From Escherichia phage IrisVonRoten, in sequence record MZ501075: a stretch of 64,000 nt of DNA; one strand, written 5' to 3'. The notes below the pieces were generated by a model. It had not been told where the DNA came from, did not search any database, and worked only from the letters and a program-made list of their open reading frames with translations. Made by a program: the position numbers and the translations under genes. Below are positions 34,843-47,274 of the stretch, one piece after another. The first letter of the stretch is position 1; every line of letters begins with the position of its first letter.

Positions 34843-35065
34843 ATATTCATAAATTAGAGAACAGCGAGCCGATTACGCTGAGTGCAGAATCCCAACCGGA
34901 GCGCATTGAATAGAGTCGGTGGGTTAGTTGGAAAACTAGTACACAGGGGGCGGCAATCCCGGTTAGTGGCTAGAACGTGTAAAATGGGGCGTCTGAAACC
35001 TCTCCCCTAAACTCTTCTTTAATTTACTGATAGTGGGGTGTGGAAATCACTTATGTAGTAACACT

Positions 35066-35138
35066 GCCGATCTAGTATAAAACGGTATTATCAAGCCGTA
35101 ACTGGTGGAAGATGTAGGTTCGAATCCTACGGTCGGTA
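35066..35138 (+). ncRNA. tRNA-like element (acceptor stem + canonical T-arm, no canonical anticodon arm)
   Basis: GTAGG-TTCGAAT-CCTAC T-arm; 7-bp acceptor pairing GCCGATC/GGTCGGT; no 5-bp/7-nt anticodon stem-loop found. Confidence 0.3.
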
Positions 35139-35640
35139 AGAACTGGATAACTGGTGCTTTTAATGTAAAAGCTTCCGAGGTTAGTTGCGCACTGCCTAAA
35201 CCACGCGGTAGTTGGTTCCAGACTAACCAACCAGTCTGCTGAATAGTTTTATTACGATTTAACTATGTCCAGGCTAAAGAAGAACTTTAGAAGGTATTCT
35301 AGGATAGTGAAGTTCTTTCTCCATATCGGAGTAGTTTTTCAAACTATCCACAAAGTGGGAAATGCTGGCATGAGAGATGCCACTAATGGTGCACAATAGC
35401 ACAGGTAATTCGCGATAACTCCTGTTGAGTAGCAGCAAAAAGGTGGGGAGTCATGACCCTAACCTAACCGAGTCCTCAGTATACCGCAGGACATAACCAC
35501 TAAGTCACCTTGACTTAAACTGGAAAATAATAGACGTTACTGTATTTTGTCTTGAAATACTTAATGAGTGAGACTTATGACTCTCCCGGTATCGTCTGTA
35601 TTTTTAAGAGTTTTTACGAGAGTTCTTAAAAATACTTAAA

Positions 35641-41803: not shown

Positions 41804-41886
41804 GGGTCGTTAGCCAAGCGGTTTGGCGGCGGATTGTTAATCCGTGTCGAAAGACAACGTAGGTTCGAATCCTACACGGCCCGCCA
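41804..41886 (+). tRNA. tRNA-Asn (anticodon GUU) with 13-nt variable region
   Basis: Acceptor GGGTCGT/ACGGCCC, anticodon stem GCGGA/TCCGT loop TTGTTAA, T-arm GTAGG-TTCGAAT-CCTAC. Confidence 0.6.
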
Positions 41887-41988: not shown

Positions 41989-42174
41989 ATGTCCAAGAAT
42001 GTGATTGCGCAGCTAGAAGTTCATCGTGATAGTACTATCAACAATATTGAAGTTGAGAAGAAATACATCGAAGAACTTAAACATGATATACTAGTAAGTC
42101 TCAATCGTCTTAATGTACGAAAAGAGTTTCTTAAAGAACTTAATGCAGCTATTGAAAAACTCAAAGCTGAGTAA
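41989..42174 (+). CDS. hypothetical coiled-coil small protein
   Basis: 61-aa ORF with SD. Confidence 0.5.
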   Translation: MSKNVIAQLEVHRDSTINNIEVEKKYIEELKHDILVSLNRLNVRKEFLKELNAAIEKLKAE

Positions 42175-42183
42175 ATAAATTAT

Positions 42184-42260
42184 GCGACCGGGGCTGGCTT
42201 GGTAATGGTACTCCCCTGTCACGGGAGGGAATGTGGGTTCAAATCCCATCGGTCGCGCCA
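42184..42260 (+). tRNA. tRNA-Asp (anticodon GUC)
   Basis: Acceptor GCGACCG/CGGTCGC, anticodon stem CTCCC/GGGAG loop CTGTCAC, T-loop TTCAAAT. Confidence 0.75.
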
Positions 42261-42277
42261 AATAAGGTAGGTTAGCT

Positions 42278-42436
42278 ATGGAACGTAGGGAGTTTACTCC
42301 AGAAGAGATAGAGCAGATAAAAGAATCTGCTATGAAAAATGCTAGAATATCTCTGTCACTGGAAGGTATCATTATTAGTGATGTAAACTTTGAAAAAATC
42401 AAAGCCATAGCTGATGAACTGGAAAAAGTAATTTAA
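42278..42436 (+). CDS. FicA/VbhA-like antitoxin homologue (52 aa)
   Basis: ATG after AAGGTAGG SD; NARISLSLEGI matches the S-x-x-x-E-G inhibitory helix motif recalled for VbhA/YhfG antitoxins; below track cutoff. Confidence 0.5.
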   Translation: MERREFTPEEIEQIKESAMKNARISLSLEGIIISDVNFEKIKAIADELEKVI

Positions 42437-42437
42437 T

Positions 42438-42513
42438 ACATCCATAGCTCAATGGTTAGAGCTACCGCCTCTTAAGCGGAGGGTTCTAGGTTCAAGTCCT
42501 AGTGGGTGTACCA
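42438..42513 (+). tRNA. tRNA-Lys (anticodon CUU)
   Basis: Acceptor ACATCCA/TGGGTGT, D-stem GCTC/GAGC, anticodon loop CTCTTAA, T-loop TTCAAGT. Confidence 0.75.
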
Positions 42514-42539
42514 AATTAAACTAGCACGAGAAATATGCT

Positions 42540-42887
42540 ATGATTAATGCTAAAGAAGAGTTGTTACTTGCCCTAAAGAATACTAAGTCTGAAGTTAAGT
42601 GTATTAAGATAGAATTCGGTTATTATGGGGACAAAGAAGTTTGGGTATTACCAGTAGGTTATACAGAAAAAGATATTGAAGATTTTCTAAATAACCTAGA
42701 CTTTAAATATGATTCTGGTTTTGGTGGACAATTGCTTTATGGTAACGTATGGTTTACTGATGGAACTTGGTTAGAACGTGGTGAATATGATGGTTCTGAA
42801 TGGTGGGAGTATAAGACTACGCCAGCAATCCCAGAAGAATGCCGAACAATTAATGGTGAAGTAGATAATACTTTACGGTTAAACTAA
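42540..42887 (+). CDS. hypothetical protein
   Basis: 115-aa ORF. Confidence 0.6.
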   Translation: MINAKEELLLALKNTKSEVKCIKIEFGYYGDKEVWVLPVGYTEKDIEDFLNNLDFKYDSGFGGQLLYGNVWFTDGTWLERGEYDGSEWWEYKTTPAIPEECRTINGEVDNTLRLN

Positions 42888-42894
42888 TAAAATT

Positions 42895-42999
42895 TCAGTG
42901 CAGAACACGGAGCTAGCAATTCGGAAGTGCTGACTCATGATAAGCTGCCTATGTACTTGCTAAGCGGTCGTGTCCAAGACTCGGACTCTTGCACTGAAA
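42895..42999 (+). ncRNA. structured RNA domain closed by 10-bp long-range helix
   Basis: TTTCAGTGCA at 42895 pairs with TGCACTGAAA at 42990; no ORF. Confidence 0.3.
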
Positions 43000-43009
43000 A
43001 CAATCAAAC

Positions 43010-43130
43010 ATTCTAGCGTGGTTGATGGGGAAACCAGCTTGGCGAGGGCAGAAGCTCGTTCGATTCGAGTGAAAGAATGGTTCTCGTAAGTCCGCACAAG
43101 TGATAACAGGTTCGAGTCCTGTCTAGAATG
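43010..43130 (+). ncRNA. long tRNA-like RNA (~121 nt) with duplicated T-arm
   Basis: Perfect 7-bp acceptor ATTCTAG/CTAGAAT; D-arm TGGT/ACCA; two T-arm hairpins (TTCGATT and TTCGAGT loops); no canonical anticodon arm. Confidence 0.35.
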
Positions 43131-43145
43131 ACACTATAAAGTTTA

Positions 43146-43257
43146 CTTATTATGTAGGTTCCGATAGATCGGCGGGTCTATTCTGGCATTTAAGAGAGGT
43201 CTCGCAAACTTCTTTGTCAGCCGTGGGGTTGGTAGCCTCCAGGTGGCCTACACAATA
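43146..43257 (+). ncRNA. structured RNA domain closed by ~12-bp long-range helix
   Basis: CTTATTATGTAGG pairs with CCTACACAATAAG; internal hairpins; no ORF. Confidence 0.3.
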
Positions 43258-43279
43258 AGTAAATTTATTAAAAATTCAT

Positions 43280-43308
43280 TTGCTATTTTGCTTAATTCTC
43301 TGTATAAT
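43280..43308 (+). promoter_or_regulatory. T5-type early promoter
   Basis: TTGCTA, 17-bp spacer, TATAAT. Confidence 0.7.
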
Positions 43309-43340
43309 ATATCTTATAAAGTGAAGAGAAGGAAAGCTAA

Positions 43341-43499
43341 ATGAAGTATAAAATTGCATCAGTATTCATGTGTACTTGGGTTATTCCTATAGTAATAGTA
43401 GGGTTTAACATAGATAACTTTTCTATCATAGAAAAGTTATTAGGACTAAGTACAGGCTTTACAATGCTAGGATTAAGCATGTTGTGGCTGAAGAAATAA
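43341..43499 (+). CDS. small hydrophobic membrane peptide (52 aa)
   Basis: ATG after GAAGAGAAGGAAAG SD; two predicted TM segments. Confidence 0.5.
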   Translation: MKYKIASVFMCTWVIPIVIVGFNIDNFSIIEKLLGLSTGFTMLGLSMLWLKK

Positions 43500-43503
43500 T
43501 TTT

Positions 43504-43580
43504 CTCCGATTAGCTCAATTGGCTAGAGTACACCGTTTGGGGCGGTGGGGTTGAAGGTTCGAGTCCTTCATTGGAGACCA
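43504..43580 (+). tRNA. tRNA-Pro (anticodon UGG)
   Basis: Acceptor CTCCGAT/ATTGGAG, D-stem GCTC/GAGT, anticodon stem CACCG/CGGTG loop TTTGGGG, T-loop TTCGAGT. Confidence 0.8.
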
Positions 43581-43587
43581 AACAATT

Positions 43588-43662
43588 GCGGGTGGGAGGC
43601 ATAGAGTTCTTCTTAGTCTCATAAGCTAAGTAAGTCCAGGGCAGTACTGGAACCCGCTACCA
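43588..43662 (+). ncRNA. possible tRNA-like hairpin RNA
   Basis: GCGGGTG/ACCCGC terminal pairing with ACCA tail, but no canonical T-loop. Confidence 0.2.
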
Positions 43663-43682
43663 TTTTAATAGGGGATTTCGAA

Positions 43683-43847
43683 ATGAAAGTATTTCGATTA
43701 GTAGTAAGTGATCGACGTTCTAGCAAAGATCGTTCGAAGTATACCTTAGCCCATTATGGTAAAGATGAAAATGAAGTAATGGCTGAATTTGGTATTAACC
43801 ATCCTTACTTAAAAGTCTACTCTATTAAGGAAGTTTATGCTTATTAA
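43683..43847 (+). CDS. hypothetical small protein (54 aa)
   Basis: ATG after AGGGGA. Confidence 0.35.
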   Translation: MKVFRLVVSDRRSSKDRSKYTLAHYGKDENEVMAEFGINHPYLKVYSIKEVYAY

Positions 43848-44310
43848 CAGGGTACTTCAAGCCCTGGATCTTCCAAGGCACTTTACTATTACTGACTCCT
43901 TAATACGTAGGTATATGGAGAAGTATAACGAAATATCTGGTAAAGAAGGTAAACTAAAGTCCTCGGAGTTTAAGTTCTGTTATAGAATGGCAGCGTTAAA
44001 CCTGCTGAAGTATAAAAGGGAGCATAAAATCCCTATAACAGAAGGGTTTGTATATGTAATAGGTAATCCAGCATGGCCTGGACTCTATAAGATAGGTATG
44101 ACAGTAGACGTAAATGAAAGACTGTCTAGTTATCAAACATATTCTCCCTATCGTGATTACAAGTTATACCATTTTAGATTCTCCTCGGACAAGAGAAGAA
44201 CTGAAAAAGCATTACATAGTCTTCTGAAAGACTACAAAGTATCAGGAGAATGGTTTGAAGTACCTCTGTTAGACGCTTTCAAACTATTAGTAGAGAATTT
44301 GGATTGCTAG
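43837..44310 (+). CDS. T5orf172-domain (GIY-YIG-like) protein, putative homing endonuclease
   Basis: GFVYVIGN...LYKIGMT motif; 3' end overlaps start of tRNA-Lys. Confidence 0.6.
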   Translation: MLINRVLQALDLPRHFTITDSLIRRYMEKYNEISGKEGKLKSSEFKFCYRMAALNLLKYKREHKIPITEGFVYVIGNPAWPGLYKIGMTVDVNERLSSYQTYSPYRDYKLYHFRFSSDKRRTEKALHSLLKDYKVSGEWFEVPLLDAFKLLVENLDC

Positions 44311-44378
44311 CTCAACTGGATAAGAGTAGCGGACCTTTAATCCGTCAGTTCTGGGTTCGAATCCCAGGCAATCCACCA
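44301..44378 (+). tRNA. tRNA-Lys (anticodon UUU), C33 in anticodon loop
   Basis: Acceptor GGATTGC/GCAATCC, anticodon stem GCGGA/TCCGT loop CCTTTAA, T-arm CTGGG-TTCGAAT-CCCAG. Confidence 0.6.
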
Positions 44379-44385
44379 AATTTTT

Positions 44386-44459
44386 GCTCGGTTAGTTTAA
44401 TGGGAGAACCCCGTCTTTACACGGCGGTTGCGATAGTTCGATTCTATCACCGAGTACCA
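44386..44459 (+). tRNA. tRNA-Val (anticodon UAC)
   Basis: Acceptor GCTCGGT/ACCGAGT, D-stem GTTT/GAAC, anticodon loop TTTACAC, T-loop TTCGATT. Confidence 0.75.
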
Positions 44460-44484
44460 AGTACAAGAAATTTCAAAAACTCAT

Positions 44485-44513
44485 TTGCTTAATGCTTAAT
44501 TTCTTGTTATAAT
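44485..44513 (+). promoter_or_regulatory. T5-type early promoter driving a ~600-nt ORF-free RNA region
   Basis: TTGCTT, 17-bp spacer, TATAAT. Confidence 0.65.
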
Positions 44514-44551
44514 ATTTATATAAATTGATGAGGAGAAATCCTCATCATAGT

Positions 44552-44738
44552 TCACTAAGGTATTAGCTCGACCTAGGACTGGCTGCCAAAAAGCACGATC
44601 CCTACGATTTGGGAGAAGTTCTAGATTAGTCCACTAGATTCAGCGGCAACTGAATAGTGTATCGGGTTTGCGAGATGACGTAGTTCCTTCCGCTCGAAGC
44701 GAAGGTGCTGTAGTTACGCCGAGCTAATAGCCTTAGTA
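44552..44738 (+). ncRNA. structured RNA domain (~190 nt) closed by long-range helix
   Basis: CTAAGGTATTAGCTCG pairs with CGAGCTAATAGCCTTAG; internal hairpins; no ORF. Confidence 0.3.
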
Positions 44739-44751
44739 AACTAAAGAATTT

Positions 44752-44830
44752 GGGGAATGGGTCTGCATGGAGTGGACACCTCGCTTGCACCGAGGACATC
44801 AGAACGGTTCGATTCCGTTATTCTCCACCA
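44752..44830 (+). tRNA. tRNA-Ala (anticodon UGC)
   Basis: Acceptor GGGGAAT/ATTCTCC with G3-U70 pair, anticodon stem CCTCG/CGAGG loop CTTGCAC, T-loop TTCGATT. Confidence 0.75.
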
Positions 44831-44835
44831 AATAC

Positions 44836-44912
44836 GCGTGATTGATGGAATGGGCATACATACCGTCCTTAGAAGTCGGGTTTTGAGGGTTCGAATCCCT
44901 TGTCACGCACCA
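44836..44912 (+). tRNA. tRNA, probable Leu (anticodon UAG) with short variable loop
   Basis: Acceptor GCGTGAT/GTCACGC, anticodon loop CTTAGAA, T-arm GAGGG-TTCGAAT-CCCTT. Confidence 0.5.
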
Positions 44913-44945
44913 AATTTGATGGTCAGAGTAAATTAAACCTACTAT

Positions 44946-44984
44946 CTCGGTTGAGCTGTTTTAATGGGTTCGAATCCCAGCGAG
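44946..44984 (+). ncRNA. tRNA fragment-like mini-helix
   Basis: CTCG...CGAG stem enclosing TGGG-TTCGAAT-CCCA; no full cloverleaf. Confidence 0.2.
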
Positions 44985-45024
44985 GCGTAACTGCCTGGTG
45001 TGATAGAGGCATCATCTTATTATT

Positions 45025-45115
45025 GGAAGAGCAAATCGAATTGGCGACGAAAACCGCTTGGAAAGCGGCTGACTGGTAAAACGGCTTGAGAGTTCAAATC
45101 TCTCCTCTTCCGCCA
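45025..45115 (+). tRNA. tRNA-Ser (anticodon GGA)
   Basis: Acceptor GGAAGAG/CTCTTCC, anticodon loop TTGGAAA, long variable arm, T-loop TTCAAAT. Confidence 0.75.
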
Positions 45116-45134
45116 AACAATTGAGGTAATAATA

Positions 45135-45482
45135 ATGCTAGCAAAAGATAAAGCTCTAGAGTTTTTAGCATCTTTAGATGAAGATAAGATTATAGATGCA
45201 GCTGAAAAAGCTGGAATGCCTGATTTAACATATCTGGAACGTGCTATTATTGCTCGTGATAAACTACAGAAAGAATTTGCTATTGCTCAGGAGGAGTTTT
45301 ATACTCGCTATAACGCTCTTACTAAGCAAATTGAAAATGAGTGTTCTCATACTTGGGGAGTAACAGAAAACCTAGGTAATGATCACGATGGCTGGTCTAA
45401 AGTAAAAATTACCTATTATCATCGTAGGACTTGTAAAATCTGTGGAAAAGTAGAAAACTTCACTAGTACGAGTGACTATTAG
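45135..45482 (+). CDS. hypothetical protein with C-terminal Cys/His cluster
   Basis: 115-aa ORF. Confidence 0.55.
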   Translation: MLAKDKALEFLASLDEDKIIDAAEKAGMPDLTYLERAIIARDKLQKEFAIAQEEFYTRYNALTKQIENECSHTWGVTENLGNDHDGWSKVKITYYHRRTCKICGKVENFTSTSDY

Positions 45483-45495
45483 TATAATAAATACT

Positions 45496-45585
45496 AGAAG
45501 ATAGGACGTAGTGGTACGTAACTGGTCTTGAAAACCAGCCCGCTGTAGTGATACGGTGATGGTTCGACTCCATTATCTTCTGCCA
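45496..45585 (+). tRNA. tRNA-Ser (anticodon UGA)
   Basis: Acceptor AGAAGAT/ATCTTCT, anticodon stem CTGGT/ACCAG loop CTTGAAA, long variable arm, T-loop TTCGACT. Confidence 0.75.
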
Positions 45586-45601
45586 ACTTATAGGGTAATA
45601 T

Positions 45602-45784
45602 ATGTCTTTAACGAAAACTGTGAAGGTTACACTAACTGATGGCACAGAGTTTAGTGCACAAATAACCTTACTAGAAGACGGTTATTGGGAAGTATATCTT
45701 CCACACGTTAATTCTACTGGTAGAGGATGGACTCAACAACAGGCTATTGTTGATGCTTTAAATGAGGCTTCCGCTGGTTTATAA
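45602..45784 (+). CDS. hypothetical small protein
   Basis: 60-aa ORF. Confidence 0.45.
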   Translation: MSLTKTVKVTLTDGTEFSAQITLLEDGYWEVYLPHVNSTGRGWTQQQAIVDALNEASAGL

Positions 45785-45791
45785 AAATTCT

Positions 45792-45921
45792 TGGAATATG
45801 CCGGAATTGGTAGACGGGACTGCCCAATAGGTTTACTAGGAACATCCACTCCTAGAAATATACCTTAAAAGCGGTTGAGTTAAATGGTCTAACTCATGAA
45901 GGTTCAAGTCCTTCTATTCCT
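45792..45921 (+). ncRNA. long tRNA-like RNA (~128 nt)
   Basis: GGAATA/TATTCC terminal pairing, T-arm GAAGG-TTCAAGT-CCTTC, D-arm-like hairpin with GG loop. Confidence 0.3.
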
Positions 45922-46036
45922 TGATACATCAATGGCTCAAAGTGTAACGGTGCTATTTGATGCGCTTGGAAAGACTTTCCCGACATGCGTTCGGGGGTAA
46001 GCTTCTGAGGCTAGAATAGAAGAGTTTCTGAGAGCC

Positions 46037-46156
46037 GCCACAATTGAAAATTCGTACTCGTCTTGAGCTGCGTGCAATAGGAGATAACTTGATTAGTATT
46101 CTAGAACATGCTAATTGAGGATGGTTTCGCTAACCCTGCGAGTTTTCAATTGTGGC
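46037..46156 (+). repeat. 14-bp perfect inverted repeat pair flanking ~90 nt
   Basis: GCCACAATTGAAAA at 46037-46050 and TTTTCAATTGTGGC at 46143-46156; second arm overlaps the 5' end of tRNA-His. Confidence 0.6.
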
Positions 46157-46228
46157 TATATCATAATTGGTTAATGATCCTGATTGTGAATCAGGCCTAT
46201 GTGGATTCGAATTCCACTAGCCACCCCA
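46152..46228 (+). tRNA. tRNA-His (anticodon GUG)
   Basis: Acceptor GTGGCTA/TAGCCAC, D-stem TCAT/ATGA, anticodon stem CCTGA/TCAGG loop TTGTGAA, T-loop TTCGAAT. Confidence 0.8.
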
Positions 46229-46253
46229 AATTAACTTAAATAGGAAATAAAAT

Positions 46254-46454
46254 ATGGCTGATTTCTGCAAACAATGCTCCATTGATATGTGGGGCAGAGA
46301 TACTGGTGACTTAGCTGGTCTGATTACAGAAGCCGAAGTCAAAGAAGGTTATGGTGCAGTTGTGGTTTGCGAAGGATGCGGAGTCATTCGAGTAGACCAT
46401 GAAGGTAAGCGCCTTGAAGAACCTGAGCCAATCGCAACGGTTCCTGTAGAGTGA
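46254..46454 (+). CDS. small Cys-rich (zinc-ribbon-like) protein
   Basis: CKQC...CEGC pairs. Confidence 0.5.
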   Translation: MADFCKQCSIDMWGRDTGDLAGLITEAEVKEGYGAVVVCEGCGVIRVDHEGKRLEEPEPIATVPVE

Positions 46455-46455
46455 A

Positions 46456-47037
46456 ATGAAATTAGAGAATTTTAAAGTAATCCCAGAATATCCAGAATAC
46501 TTAATCTCTCCATACGGAGAGGTTTACTCTACCAAGAGTAATAAATTACTTACACATCATTTAGGCAGTGCAGGATACCCGTTTGTAACGTTCTATGAAC
46601 AGGGTAAAAATGTTTCTGTTGTACTGCATAGATTATTGGCTAGAGTATTTAAAGATTTACCTTCGCTAGAATCTGAACTAGAGGTGGATCACAAAGATAG
46701 GAATAAATTGAACTTTGCCCTGGATAATCTAGTTGTCATGACCAAGGAAGATCACAGAGTAAAAACTACACTTGAAAGAGGACATATAATAGGTGGTAAC
46801 AAGTGCCCTTATTGTAGTAAACAAATAAATTCTTCAGCTAAAACTTGTTTTAATTGTAAACCTAAGAGTAACCCTGCTATTACAGCAGAGCAAATAGAAT
46901 ATTGGGTAATAAATTATTCGTGGGTTAAAGCATCAAAAGAGCTGGGACTATCTGATAATGGTCTACGTAAACGTTATAAATCCTTAACAGGTAAAGATCC
47001 AAAAAGTATTAAGAAGAAGGTTAGCCAAGTCGGTTAA
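46456..47037 (+). CDS. HNH homing endonuclease
   Basis: LEVDHKDRNKLNFALDNL HNH core; C-terminal zinc ribbon; 3' end overlaps tRNA-Gln. Confidence 0.7.
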   Translation: MKLENFKVIPEYPEYLISPYGEVYSTKSNKLLTHHLGSAGYPFVTFYEQGKNVSVVLHRLLARVFKDLPSLESELEVDHKDRNKLNFALDNLVVMTKEDHRVKTTLERGHIIGGNKCPYCSKQINSSAKTCFNCKPKSNPAITAEQIEYWVINYSWVKASKELGLSDNGLRKRYKSLTGKDPKSIKKKVSQVG

Positions 47038-47090
47038 GGCTGGGGTCTCTGAAATCCTGATCAGTGGTTCAAATCCACTACCTTCTGCCA
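47015..47090 (+). tRNA. tRNA-Gln (anticodon CUG)
   Basis: Acceptor AGAAGGT/ACCTTCT, anticodon loop CTCTGAA, T-loop TTCAAAT. Confidence 0.7.
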
Positions 47091-47096
47091 AACAAT

Positions 47097-47174
47097 TGGG
47101 GATTAGCTTAGCTTGGCCTAAAGCTTCGGCCTTTGAAGTCGAGATCATTGGTTCAAATCCAATATCCCCTGCCA
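47097..47174 (+). tRNA. tRNA-Gln (anticodon UUG)
   Basis: D-stem GCTT/AAGC, anticodon loop CTTTGAA, T-arm ATTGG-TTCAAAT-CCAAT; U1-U72 mismatch. Confidence 0.6.
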
Positions 47175-47185
47175 GCCAAATTAAT

Positions 47186-47260
47186 GCGTGATTAGTTCAG
47201 TGGCTAGAATAACTGGCTTCCAACCAGTAGACACGAGTTCGACTCTCGTATCCCGCACCA
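47186..47260 (+). tRNA. tRNA-Gly (anticodon UCC)
   Basis: Acceptor GCGTGAT/ATCCCGC, anticodon stem ACTGG/CCAGT loop CTTCCAA, T-loop TTCGACT. Confidence 0.75.
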
Positions 47261-47274
47261 AATAAGGAATCTCT

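What the first reader, a model, noticed from the sequence alone, without database searches (positions are those of the whole stretch)
43837..47090. Homing-endonuclease ORFs physically overlap tRNA genes
The 3' end of the T5orf172 ORF (43837-44310) overlaps the first ~10 nt of tRNA-Lys(UUU). The HNH ORF 46456-47037 ends about 23 nt inside tRNA-Gln(CUG). This suggests endonuclease genes inserted at or using tRNA genes as targets, and may explain degenerate tRNA-like remnants nearby.
Basis: seen in the sequence. Interest (0 to 1): 0.45.

Follow-up and report, generated by a model that had tools for sequence, protein, structure and literature searches.

The report
Homing-nuclease genes fused to phage tRNA genes
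In this T5-like phage, two selfish nuclease genes end inside the tRNA gene that follows them and always travel with their own version of that tRNA; this is a real feature, but it is a further example of mobile nuclease genes already known from the tRNA clusters of phages T5 and T4.

Summary
ORF 43837-44310 (T5orf172/GIY-YIG type) ends with a TAG that is nt 8-10 of tRNA-Lys(UUU). ORF 46456-47037 (NUMOD4+HNH) ends 23 nt inside tRNA-Gln(CUG).

The window is the tRNA region of a T5-like phage. The HNH is the orthologue (94% aa) of T5 F-TflII, whose identical 23-nt overlap is already annotated in T5. The T5orf172 ORF is BF23 "ORF trn 2.12.1", which T5 lacks.

Both genes are present or absent at fixed sites among relatives. 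Each is tied to a private, strongly divergent allele of the tRNA it runs into. A near-isogenic phage (99.8% identical upstream) lacks the HNH block, which fixes its edges at 46431 and about 47262.

Across T5-like loci, all 11 independent nuclease/tRNA junction types abut or overlap the tRNA, against 4 of 22 other ORF families (p=1e-4). All ten that overlap carry a private tRNA allele.

Best reading: these are free-standing homing endonuclease plus tRNA cassettes, working like T4 SegB. The link to nearby tRNA-like "remnants" is not supported: those are conserved in nuclease-free relatives, and several correspond to RNAs annotated in T5/BF23. Cleavage targets are inferred, not shown. Modest interest.

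The parts
43280..43308 (+). Sigma-70-like promoter (TTGCTA-17-TATAAT) at the position of T5/BF23 promoter P13a. It is the likely start of the transcript that carries orf52, tRNA-Pro, orf54, the T5orf172 gene, tRNA-Lys and tRNA-Val.
   Evidence: 10 of 12 match. T5 and BF23 annotate P13a at the homologous place. No + strand terminator-like site lies between it and tRNA-Val.
43683..43847 (+). Upstream small ORF (54 aa, homologue of T5.065 / BF23 ORF trn 2.12). Its last 11 nt are overlapped by the start of the nuclease gene. It is a flank that is not linked to the cassette.
   Evidence: It is only 77-93% identical to relatives, and only 81-82% identical to the other T5orf172-carrying loci. In nuclease-free alleles it ends 0-2 nt before tRNA-Lys.
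43837..44310 (+). T5orf172 (GIY-YIG superfamily) free-standing homing endonuclease gene, 157 aa. The last 2.3 codons and the stop codon TAG are encoded by tRNA-Lys nt 1-10.
   Evidence: Pfam. GIY-YIG-type residues (G70, Y73, K85, G87, R95, E123, E138) are invariant among 5 paralogues. It sits at the same site at 98-99% aa identity in VAH1, VEc33, VSe12, BF23 and one IMG/VR contig, and is absent in 21 loci. ORF plus tRNA is found in 84 INPHARED records. It is 99.3% identical in Epseptimavirus S132, where the flanks are 75-90% identical.
44301..44378 (+). tRNA-Lys(UUU), the nuclease-linked allele. It has a perfect cloverleaf and an anticodon loop CCUUUAA (C33).
   Evidence: It is identical in all 6 T5orf172-carrying loci and in none of 21 nuclease-free loci. 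The allele is in 86 records, 84 of which hold ORF plus tRNA. The identical BF23 gene is annotated as giving an effective amber suppressor.
44386..44459 (+). tRNA-Val(UAC), the downstream flank that is not linked to the cassette. It marks the 3' limit of the T5orf172 cassette.
   Evidence: It is 96-100% identical in loci with and without the nuclease.
46254..46454 (+). Upstream small ORF (66 aa, CxxC...CxxC, homologue of T5.062). The recombination breakpoint lies at 46430/46431, inside its last 8 codons.
   Evidence: Phage S.Inf 5-2 is 99.8% identical up to 46430 and then diverges. The same microhomology (cttgaagaacctgagcca) is the endpoint of HNH deletions in DT571/2- and phiAPCEc03-type alleles.
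46456..47037 (+). NUMOD4 + HNH (I-HmuI-like) homing endonuclease gene, 193 aa, orthologue of T5 F-TflII (hegD). The last 7 codons and the stop codon TAA lie in tRNA-Gln(CUG) nt 1-23.
   Evidence: Pfam. It is 94% aa identical to T5 hegD at the syntenic site with the same 23-nt overlap. It matches PDB 1u3e (I-HmuI) at E=2e-10. The D-H...N...H residues are invariant among paralogues, while the tRNA-encoded tail is not conserved.
47015..47090 (+). tRNA-Gln(CUG), the HNH-linked allele (AGAAGGTTAGCC...).
   Evidence: 56.9 bits. All 5 HNH-carrying loci have it. The 21 HNH-free loci carry an unrelated allele (TGGGATG... / TGGAGTG...). Three loci keep the linked allele after deleting the HNH. In INPHARED, 17 records hold HNH plus tRNAs and 30 hold the tRNA pair.
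47097..47260 (+). tRNA-Gln(UUG) and tRNA-Gly(UCC). Relative to the near-isogenic phage they lie inside the exchanged block, but in the wider population they are only loosely linked to the HNH.
   Evidence: The block 46431 to about 47262 is replaced in S.Inf 5-2. The tRNA-Gln(UUG) allele occurs at 100% identity in 47 further records without the HNH. The tRNA-Gly allele is unlinked.
45025..45111 (+). tRNA-Ser(GGA)-like element (= BF23 tRNAS2). It is one of the nearby 'degenerate tRNA-like' stretches and is not a by-product of the two nuclease genes.
   Evidence: Weak hit to the Rfam tRNA-Sec model, 24 bits. The minimum-energy fold is a cloverleaf. It is annotated as a tRNA in BF23. The surrounding segment 44913-45134 is 98-100% conserved in most loci.

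Best explanation
Both ORFs are free-standing homing endonuclease genes that have colonised the 5' flank of tRNA genes in the tRNA cluster of a T5-like phage. Each forms one mobile cassette with the tRNA it runs into.
- Cassette 1, about 43820-44385: ribosome-binding site, T5orf172 gene and a private tRNA-Lys(UUU) allele.
- Cassette 2, 46431 to about 47100-47262: the end of orf66, the F-TflII-type HNH gene, a private tRNA-Gln(CUG) allele and, variably, tRNA-Gln(UUG) and tRNA-Gly.

Inferred mechanism: in a mixed infection the nuclease cuts (T5orf172) or nicks (HNH, I-HmuI-like) the nuclease-free allele at or near the cognate tRNA gene or the ORF/tRNA junction. Recombinational repair from the nuclease-carrying genome then copies in the nuclease gene together with its divergent, presumably cleavage-resistant tRNA allele.

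The overlap arises because the nuclease ORF has no stop codon of its own. It reads into the tRNA until the first in-frame stop, for example the conserved U8-A9-G10 = TAG. This welds the nuclease to its resistant target allele.

A probable side effect, proposed earlier for SegB and for F-TflI/II, is that RNase P processing of the tRNA 5' end removes the stop codon from the nuclease mRNA and so keeps expression low.

Shown here: the domains, the overlaps, presence/absence at fixed sites, the linked private tRNA alleles, the sharp recombination boundaries and the lateral transfer.
Inferred: the cleavage site, resistance of the resident allele, and the processing effect.
For: - Nuclease domains with intact catalytic residues.
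- The HNH is 94% aa identical to T5 F-TflII at the syntenic position. F-TflII is reported to be a site-specific nicking endonuclease (Akulenko 2004, as paraphrased in PMC6105707).
- Both genes are present or absent at fixed sites.
- Linkage: the T5orf172 gene goes with one tRNA-Lys allele in 6 of 6 loci against 0 of 21 loci without it, and 84 records hold ORF plus tRNA out of 86 with the allele. The HNH always comes with the AGAAGGT-type tRNA-Gln(CUG).
- Cassette edges: the flanks (orf54, tRNA-Val) are unlinked. The near-isogenic S.Inf 5-2 is 99.8% identical up to 46430, differs to about 47262, then is 95.8% identical.
- Lateral transfer: the cassette is 99.3-100% identical in Epseptimavirus S132, where the flanks are 75-90% identical.
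- Generality: in 11 of 11 nuclease/tRNA junction types (5 T5orf172 and 6 HNH, 10 of them checked against Pfam; NUMOD4 only for the tRNA-Asp HNH, HNH_3 below the curated cut-off for the 153-aa one) the ORF abuts or overlaps the tRNA. All ten that overlap have a private tRNA allele. The single case with 0 nt overlap shares the common allele.
- Precedent: T4 SegB sits in a tRNA cluster, cleaves tRNA genes of segB-free phages and co-converts them. Its stop codon abuts tRNA-Arg, and the processing idea was extended to F-TflI/II (PMC2330249).
Against: - No cleavage site is known for the T5orf172 protein, and the published F-TflII sites could not be read here (the paper is not held).
- The region is a dense mosaic in which many segments without a nuclease gene also occur as discrete alleles. 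Linkage could therefore partly reflect ordinary modular recombination.
- Linkage of the tRNA 5' end to the ORF is partly trivial, because they share bases.
- The tRNA-encoded protein tails are not conserved, so the overlap itself need not be selected.
- Four non-nuclease ORF families also overlap tRNAs.
- Thirteen records keep the HNH-type tRNA pair without the HNH.
Confidence: 0.65

Rival explanations
1. The overlap is incidental packing. The nuclease genes are mobile, but the overlap and the tRNA next door have no role: the targets lie elsewhere, and the ORFs simply read on to the first stop codon in a genome with almost no spacers.
For: ORFs in this region end 0-15 nt from the next tRNA as a rule. 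Four of about 22 non-nuclease families overlap a tRNA by 6-14 nt. The residues encoded by the tRNA are not conserved among paralogues.
Against: Overlap is strongly enriched among nuclease genes (10 of 11 against 4 of 22, p=1e-4). Every overlapping nuclease gene has a private allele of that tRNA, which diverges along its whole length and not only in the shared bases. The one non-overlapping case does not.
Confidence: 0.15
2. The overlap is selected as an expression throttle. RNase P cutting at tRNA position +1 removes the stop codon, which lies 8-23 nt downstream. The nuclease is then translated from a non-stop mRNA and kept at a low, non-toxic level. This is compatible with the main explanation, as an added function.
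For: Proposed in print for T4 segB, and by personal communication for T5 F-TflI/II (PMC2330249). Both genes lie inside tRNA-containing transcription units with no intervening + strand terminator. In 9 of 11 junction types the stop codon lies wholly inside the tRNA.
Against: There are no RNA or protein data. Two junction types (tRNA-Pro with 0 nt and tRNA-Thr with 1 nt) would keep or nearly keep their stop codon. Translation could precede processing.
Confidence: 0.3
3. These are domesticated nucleases that benefit the phage. They might exclude competing T5-like phages, or promote rearrangement or amplification of anti-defence tRNA genes, rather than being purely selfish.
For: SegB drives amplification of tRNA-Tyr and other anti-defence loci, and SegB homologues are associated with tRNAs (PMC13096335). 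The T5 tRNA-Lys(UUU) at this very locus neutralises PARIS (PMC11464382). The linked tRNA-Lys allele is 100% conserved while the nuclease gene diverges to about 85%.
Against: Both genes have a patchy distribution (17-84 of about 600 records). HNH deletions are frequent (13 of 30 allele carriers). T5's linked tRNA-Gln(CUG) is flagged as a pseudogene. No tandem amplification is seen in the window.
Confidence: 0.15
4. There is no true dual use. The overlapped 'tRNA' is a pseudogene or merely a homology arm, so the overlap involves no functional RNA. This applies mainly to tRNA-Gln(CUG).
For: T5 annotates its tRNAQ2(CUG) as a pseudogene, and its anticodon and T stems are mismatched. DT571/2-type alleles have a broken acceptor stem.
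Against: The window copy scores 56.9 bits and all its stems pair. The variants in fp01 and SP3 keep the anticodon-stem pairing. For tRNA-Lys the identical BF23 gene is annotated as functional, giving an effective amber suppressor.
Confidence: 0.15

Closest known systems
Phage T5 F-TflII (hegD, T5.061) with tRNAQ2(CUG)
   Same: It is the orthologue: 94% aa identity, the same position after T5.062, the same 582-nt ORF and the same 23-nt overlap with the same tRNA-Gln(CUG) allele. It is reported to be a site-specific nicking HNH endonuclease.
   Different: T5's overlapped tRNA is flagged as a pseudogene and has mismatched stems. The window's copy has intact stems and scores 56.9 bits.
BF23 ORF trn 2.12.1 with tRNAK (AJ604530), and homologues annotated 'putative homing endonuclease / GIY-YIG nuclease' in IrmaTschudi, TrudiRoth and JLBYU43
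   Same: The same T5orf172 gene (98% identity), the same 10-nt overlap and an identical tRNA-Lys allele.
   Different: Nothing structural. In BF23 it is annotated only as hypothetical, and no activity has been reported in the papers searched.
Phage T4 SegB (GIY-YIG) in the T4 tRNA gene cluster
   Same: A free-standing homing endonuclease gene inside a tRNA cluster. Its ORF ends at the 5' end of tRNA-Arg. It cleaves tRNA genes of segB-free relatives, and homing co-converts and excludes their tRNA genes. tRNA processing has been proposed to limit its expression (PMC2330249). SegB homologues are widely associated with tRNAs (PMC13096335).
   Different: The nuclease families differ (the T5orf172 subfamily, with the nuclease domain at the C-terminus, and the HNH family). 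Here the ORFs run 10-23 nt into the tRNA, and each has its own private allele of the downstream tRNA. SegB recognises the 3' end of tRNA genes.
I-HmuI (SPO1 intron-encoded HNH nickase, PDB 1u3e)
   Same: The closest solved relative of the HNH protein (E=2e-10). The N-terminal region and the HNH motif align over residues 14-111.
   Different: I-HmuI is intron-encoded within a DNA polymerase gene. The gene here is free-standing and lies next to a tRNA.
T5orf172 homing endonuclease genes of ICP1 and other phages (Barth et al. 2023, PMC10448857)
   Same: T5orf172 is treated as a GIY-YIG subfamily of homing nucleases and is reported to be abundant in T5-like phages. Nuclease genes sit at the boundaries of genetic exchange.
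   Different: That work does not describe tRNA-fused cassettes: a search of the paper found no occurrence of 'overlap' and no mention of tRNA in this context.

Membership tests
Free-standing homing endonuclease gene | Encodes a nuclease domain of a homing-endonuclease family with intact catalytic residues | tested here: met
   Pfam gives T5orf172/MUG113 and NUMOD4+HNH_3, all above the curated cut-offs. Catalytic-type residues are invariant among paralogues. The HNH protein matches I-HmuI.
Free-standing homing endonuclease gene | Present or absent at one and the same locus among close relatives | tested here: met
   T5orf172: 6 loci with it and 21 without. HNH: 5 with it and 24 without. In INPHARED, 84 and 17 records carry them, out of several hundred T5-like records. 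A near-isogenic HNH-free relative exists.
Free-standing homing endonuclease gene | Sharp recombination boundaries or co-converted flanks, and lateral transfer | tested here: met
   For the T5orf172 cassette, identity steps from 82% to 98-100% and back to 96%. For the HNH block it goes from 99.8% to unalignable to 95.8%. The S132 cassette is 99.3-100% identical, with flanks at 75-90%.
Free-standing homing endonuclease gene | The resident allele of the target differs from the allele in nuclease-free genomes (self-protection) | tested here: inconclusive
   Private, strongly divergent tRNA alleles are linked to every overlapping nuclease gene. Whether the tRNA is the target has not been shown.
Free-standing homing endonuclease gene | Site-specific cleavage of the nuclease-free allele, and super-Mendelian inheritance in crosses | not testable with these tools
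   This needs enzyme assays and phage crosses. For F-TflII only a second-hand statement of nicking activity was available, because the original paper is not held.
F-TflII (T5 hegD) orthologue group | High identity over the full length, and conserved synteny | tested here: met
   94.3% aa identity over 193 of 193 residues, located between the T5.062 homologue and tRNA-Gln(CUG).
Functional tRNA gene (the overlapped partners) | Covariance-model score above threshold, a cloverleaf fold, and evidence of activity | tested here: met
   59.9 and 56.9 bits against a gathering score of 29. tRNA-Lys gives a perfect cloverleaf as its minimum-energy fold. The identical BF23 tRNAK is annotated as yielding an effective amber suppressor. 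Activity of this tRNA-Gln(CUG) allele has not been shown, and T5's copy is flagged as a pseudogene.

The most novel reading that the evidence does not exclude
In T5-like phages, homing nuclease genes and tRNA genes form obligatory fused cassettes, and placing the stop codon inside the tRNA is the point of the arrangement. It makes it impossible to recombine the nuclease away from its resistant tRNA allele, and it lets RNase P remove the stop codon to throttle the nuclease. As a consequence, selfish nucleases drive sweeps of alternative alleles of anti-defence tRNAs. One example would be tRNA-Lys(UUU), the anti-PARIS factor of T5, whose nuclease-linked allele carries an unusual C33 anticodon loop. 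On this reading the nucleases shape which tRNA-targeting host defences a phage can escape.
Probability: 0.2. Interest if true: 0.6.

Novelty: new member of a known kind. Interest (0 to 1): 0.33.

Why it matters
By itself it adds little. The HNH/tRNA-Gln overlap is already in the T5 annotation, and homing nucleases that target tRNA clusters are established (T4 SegB, T5 F-Tfl enzymes).

The comparative result is somewhat more useful. In T5-like phages every nuclease gene in the tRNA region runs into the next tRNA and carries a private allele of it. This explains much of the mosaic structure of the tRNA region. It gives concrete, testable target predictions for an uncharacterised T5orf172 nuclease. 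It also links selfish-gene drive to the turnover of tRNA alleles that are now known to act as anti-defence factors against systems such as PARIS and retron Eco7.

Tried and rejected
- The original F-TflI/II/IV paper (PMID 15456135) is not in the library. Its cleavage-site data therefore could not be used; only paraphrases were available.
- A MAFFT alignment of window, T5 and VAH1 misplaced the large gap. The boundaries were taken instead from per-segment BLAST and from the near-isogenic pair.
- A megablast search with the T5orf172 ORF alone suggested poor linkage: 17 records against 86 with the tRNA allele. The more sensitive search showed a second ORF subtype of about 85% identity and restored the linkage to 84 against 86.
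- I first took tRNA-Gln(UUG) to be part of the HNH cassette. The wider search showed the same allele in 47 records without the HNH, so its linkage is loose.
- I considered that the nearby tRNA-like stretches are debris from these insertions and rejected it. They are conserved in nuclease-free phages, and several correspond to RNAs annotated in T5/BF23.
- No solved structure resembles the T5orf172 protein by sequence.
- Structure prediction and the large protein searches were not run, because domain identity was not in doubt.

Full report
**What the window is.**
The 4-kb stretch around the finding matches 604 phage records, nearly all of them T5-like (Demerecviridae: Tequintavirus and Epseptimavirus). 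It is the tRNA gene region, in reverse orientation relative to the T5 record. The best complete genome is Escherichia phage VAH1 (91% identity over 99% of the query). A contig of Salmonella phage S.Inf 5-2 is 99.8% identical over window 42001-46430.

**Check of the observation.**
- ARAGORN finds 25 tRNAs in the window, including tRNA-Lys(UUU) at 44301-44378 and tRNA-Gln(CUG) at 47015-47090.
- The Rfam tRNA model gives the same 5' ends at 59.9 and 56.9 bits, against a gathering score of 29.
- ORF 43837-44310 (157 aa) carries T5orf172/MUG113. ORF 46456-47037 (193 aa) carries NUMOD4+HNH_3.
- The overlaps are exactly 10 and 23 nt.
- The first ORF stops at TAG, which is U8-A9-G10 of the tRNA. The second stops at TAA in the D-loop, tRNA nt 21-23.

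**What was already on record.**
- T5's own annotation (AY543070) shows hegD, "H-N-H endonuclease F-TflII", 582 nt, overlapping tRNAQ2(CUG) by the same 23 nt. It also shows hegC (F-TflI) overlapping tRNA-Ser(GGA) by 14 nt, and T5.069 overlapping tRNA-Asn by 24 nt.
- The window's HNH is 94% aa identical to hegD.
- T5 has no ORF between T5.065 and tRNA-Lys(UUU). BF23 has "ORF trn 2.12.1", annotated as hypothetical, with the same 10-nt overlap. Some newer records call this gene a putative homing endonuclease or GIY-YIG nuclease.
- The T4 SegB paper states that homing nuclease genes in phage tRNA clusters are rare. It names T5 F-TflI/II as the other case. It proposes that tRNA processing at the end of the ORF restrains expression of segB and of the T5 enzymes.
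- F-TflII is described second-hand as making single-strand breaks at asymmetric sites.
- The HNH protein resembles the nickase I-HmuI.

**Presence or absence, and linked tRNA alleles.**
I used the small ORF upstream of the HNH (orf66) as an anchor and fetched 28 T5-like loci.

T5orf172 gene:
- It is present at 98-99% aa identity at the same site in 5 loci plus the window, and absent in 21.
- All carriers share one identical tRNA-Lys(UUU) allele, and none of the 21 others has it. Those carry alleles only 74-80% identical, which differ in the acceptor, anticodon and T stems with compensating changes.
- In the larger INPHARED collection the allele occurs in 86 records, and ORF plus tRNA together in 84. 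About 200 other records match only the tRNA part, at 77-80%.
- The flanks are not linked. The upstream orf54 is only 81-82% identical between the window and the other carriers. tRNA-Val is 96-100% identical regardless of the nuclease gene.
- The cassette is therefore about 43820-44385.
- In Epseptimavirus S132 the ORF is 99.3% and the tRNA 100% identical to the window, while neighbouring segments are 75-90% identical. This indicates lateral transfer of the cassette.

HNH gene:
- All 5 carriers have a tRNA-Gln(CUG) allele (AGAAGGTTAGCC...) that cannot be aligned with the allele of 21 HNH-free loci.
- Three HNH-free loci keep the HNH-type allele and are visibly deletions. Their endpoints fall in a microhomology between the end of orf66 and the HNH 3' end / tRNA 5' end. 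One type (DT571/2) corrupts the acceptor stem.
- In INPHARED, 17 records hold the HNH plus both tRNA-Gln genes and 30 hold the tRNA pair.
- The near-isogenic S.Inf 5-2 defines the exchanged block. It is 99.8% identical up to 46430. Window 46431 to about 47262 (end of orf66, HNH, tRNA-Gln CUG and UUG, tRNA-Gly) is then replaced by 265 bp carrying other alleles. After that, identity is 95.8%.

**A general rule in this phage group.**
- I scanned all ORFs that end near a tRNA in the 29 sequences (28 loci plus the window). This gave 11 independent nuclease/tRNA junction types: five T5orf172 paralogues and six HNH genes. Ten were checked against Pfam; T5orf172-B to -E, F-TflI, HNH-186 and HNH-130 hit T5orf172 or HNH models, the 193-aa tRNA-Asp gene matched only NUMOD4 (just under its cut-off) and the 153-aa gene matched HNH_3 below its cut-off.
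- The tRNAs involved are Lys, Asn (twice), Leu (twice), Pro, Gln, Ser, Asp, Gly and Thr.
- The overlaps are 0, 1, 6, 8, 10, 10, 10, 14, 15, 23 and 24 nt.
- Conserved non-nuclease ORFs typically stop 0-15 nt before the tRNA, and only 4 of about 22 families overlap it (Fisher p=1e-4).
- Three unrelated junctions use the tRNA's U8-A9-G10 as their TAG stop codon.
- The protein tails encoded by the tRNAs are not conserved among paralogues. The ORFs therefore simply lack a stop codon of their own.
- Every nuclease gene that overlaps a tRNA has a private allele of that tRNA. The single gene with 0 nt overlap (before tRNA-Pro) shares the common allele.

**Interpretation.**
- These are free-standing homing endonuclease genes, each forming a unit with a divergent tRNA gene. 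The pattern matches T4 SegB, which cleaves tRNA genes of segB-free phages and converts their tRNA cluster. It also fits the general picture of nuclease genes at the boundaries of exchange.
- It is inferred, not shown, that the cognate tRNA gene or its upstream junction is the cleavage target, and that the resident allele is resistant.
- The overlap most simply reflects insertion flush against the tRNA with read-through to the first stop codon. It has the effect of welding the nuclease to its presumably resistant allele.
- The published idea that RNase P processing removes the stop codon and throttles expression is plausible. Both genes sit in tRNA-containing transcription units without intervening terminators. 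It remains untested.

**The "degenerate tRNA-like remnants".**
- The stretch 45025-45111 is a tRNA-Ser(GGA)-like element. BF23 annotates it as tRNAS2. Its minimum-energy fold is a cloverleaf, and it scores 24 bits against the tRNA-Sec model.
- The stretch 45785-46151 corresponds to RNA1, RNAI and RNAIII, annotated in T5/BF23 as stable RNAs.
- Both stretches are 90-100% conserved in phages without these nuclease genes.
- The fMet-like element at 43587-43666 keeps the acceptor stem and anticodon loop but has altered D and T arms. It also occurs in phages that lack the T5orf172 gene.
- These elements are therefore not by-products of the two insertions. In relatives, however, HNH turnover has damaged tRNA-Gln(CUG) (T5 pseudogene, DT571/2 type).

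**Function of the overlapped tRNAs.**
- The tRNA-Lys allele folds as a perfect cloverleaf. The identical BF23 gene is annotated as giving an effective amber suppressor when its anticodon is changed.
- Its anticodon loop is CCUUUAA, with C33 in place of the near-universal U33.
- T5's tRNA-Lys at this locus is the factor that neutralises the PARIS defence, through differences in the anticodon stem-loop. The three allele classes differ exactly there.
- The window's tRNA-Gln(CUG) has intact stems, unlike T5's copy.

**Verdict.**
The HNH case is already known from T5. The T5orf172/tRNA-Lys cassette is an uncharacterised member of the same kind. The "overlap plus private allele" rule is a tidy comparative result, not a new mechanism.

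Noticed in passing
window 44301-44378: The nuclease-linked tRNA-Lys(UUU) has the anticodon loop CCUUUAA, with C33 in place of the near-universal U33. The identical BF23 gene is nevertheless annotated as functional (amber suppressor). T5's tRNA-Lys at this locus is the anti-PARIS factor, and the three allele classes in T5-like phages differ in the anticodon stem-loop.
   Followed up: partly
window 43587-43666: A tRNA-fMet-like element keeps the acceptor stem and the CUCAUAA anticodon loop but has replaced D and T arms (T-loop GGCAGUA on a perfect 5-bp stem). Neither ARAGORN nor Rfam calls it. It is identical in SP3, S.Inf 5-2 and another locus (L026), whereas T5, BF23 and VAH1 have a canonical tRNA-fMet here.
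   Followed up: partly
window 45025-45111 and 44940-45024: A tRNA-Ser(GGA)-like cloverleaf is missed by ARAGORN (it is BF23 tRNAS2). It is preceded by a stretch with a T-arm-like GGGTTCGAATCCC that may be the 3' half of a lost tRNA. In T5 this interval holds F-TflI and a private tRNA-Ser(GGA) allele.
   Followed up: partly
window 44752-44830: ARAGORN calls a 79-nt tRNA-Ala(UGC) with a G3:U70 pair but an unusual long D-arm. The Rfam tRNA model gives no hit at E<=1.
   Followed up: no
L021 5165-5240, L027 2526-2601, L028 5185-5260: These loci are HNH-deletion derivatives that keep the HNH-type tRNA-Gln(CUG). The endpoints fall in a microhomology between the end of orf66 and the HNH 3' end / tRNA 5' end. 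The DT571/2 type breaks the acceptor stem, the phiAPCEc03 type is precise, and the FFH_1 type keeps the last 14 HNH codons fused to orf66.
   Followed up: yes
window 41804-41886 versus L001 164-241: The window carries the nuclease-free 83-nt tRNA-Asn allele. All 8 loci that have the T5.069-like T5orf172 gene carry a different 78-nt allele, which that ORF overlaps by 24 nt. This is a third case of perfect nuclease/tRNA-allele linkage.
   Followed up: yes
window 46254-46454: The 66-aa CxxC...CxxC protein upstream of the HNH has homologues (45-68% identity) on about 35 unrelated metagenomic viral contigs (L029, L032-L065). It is therefore a widespread small phage protein of unknown function.
   Followed up: no
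window 35065-35139: ARAGORN calls a tRNA-Ser with the anticodon ACU, which is an unusual assignment. It lies outside the finding and was not examined.
   Followed up: no
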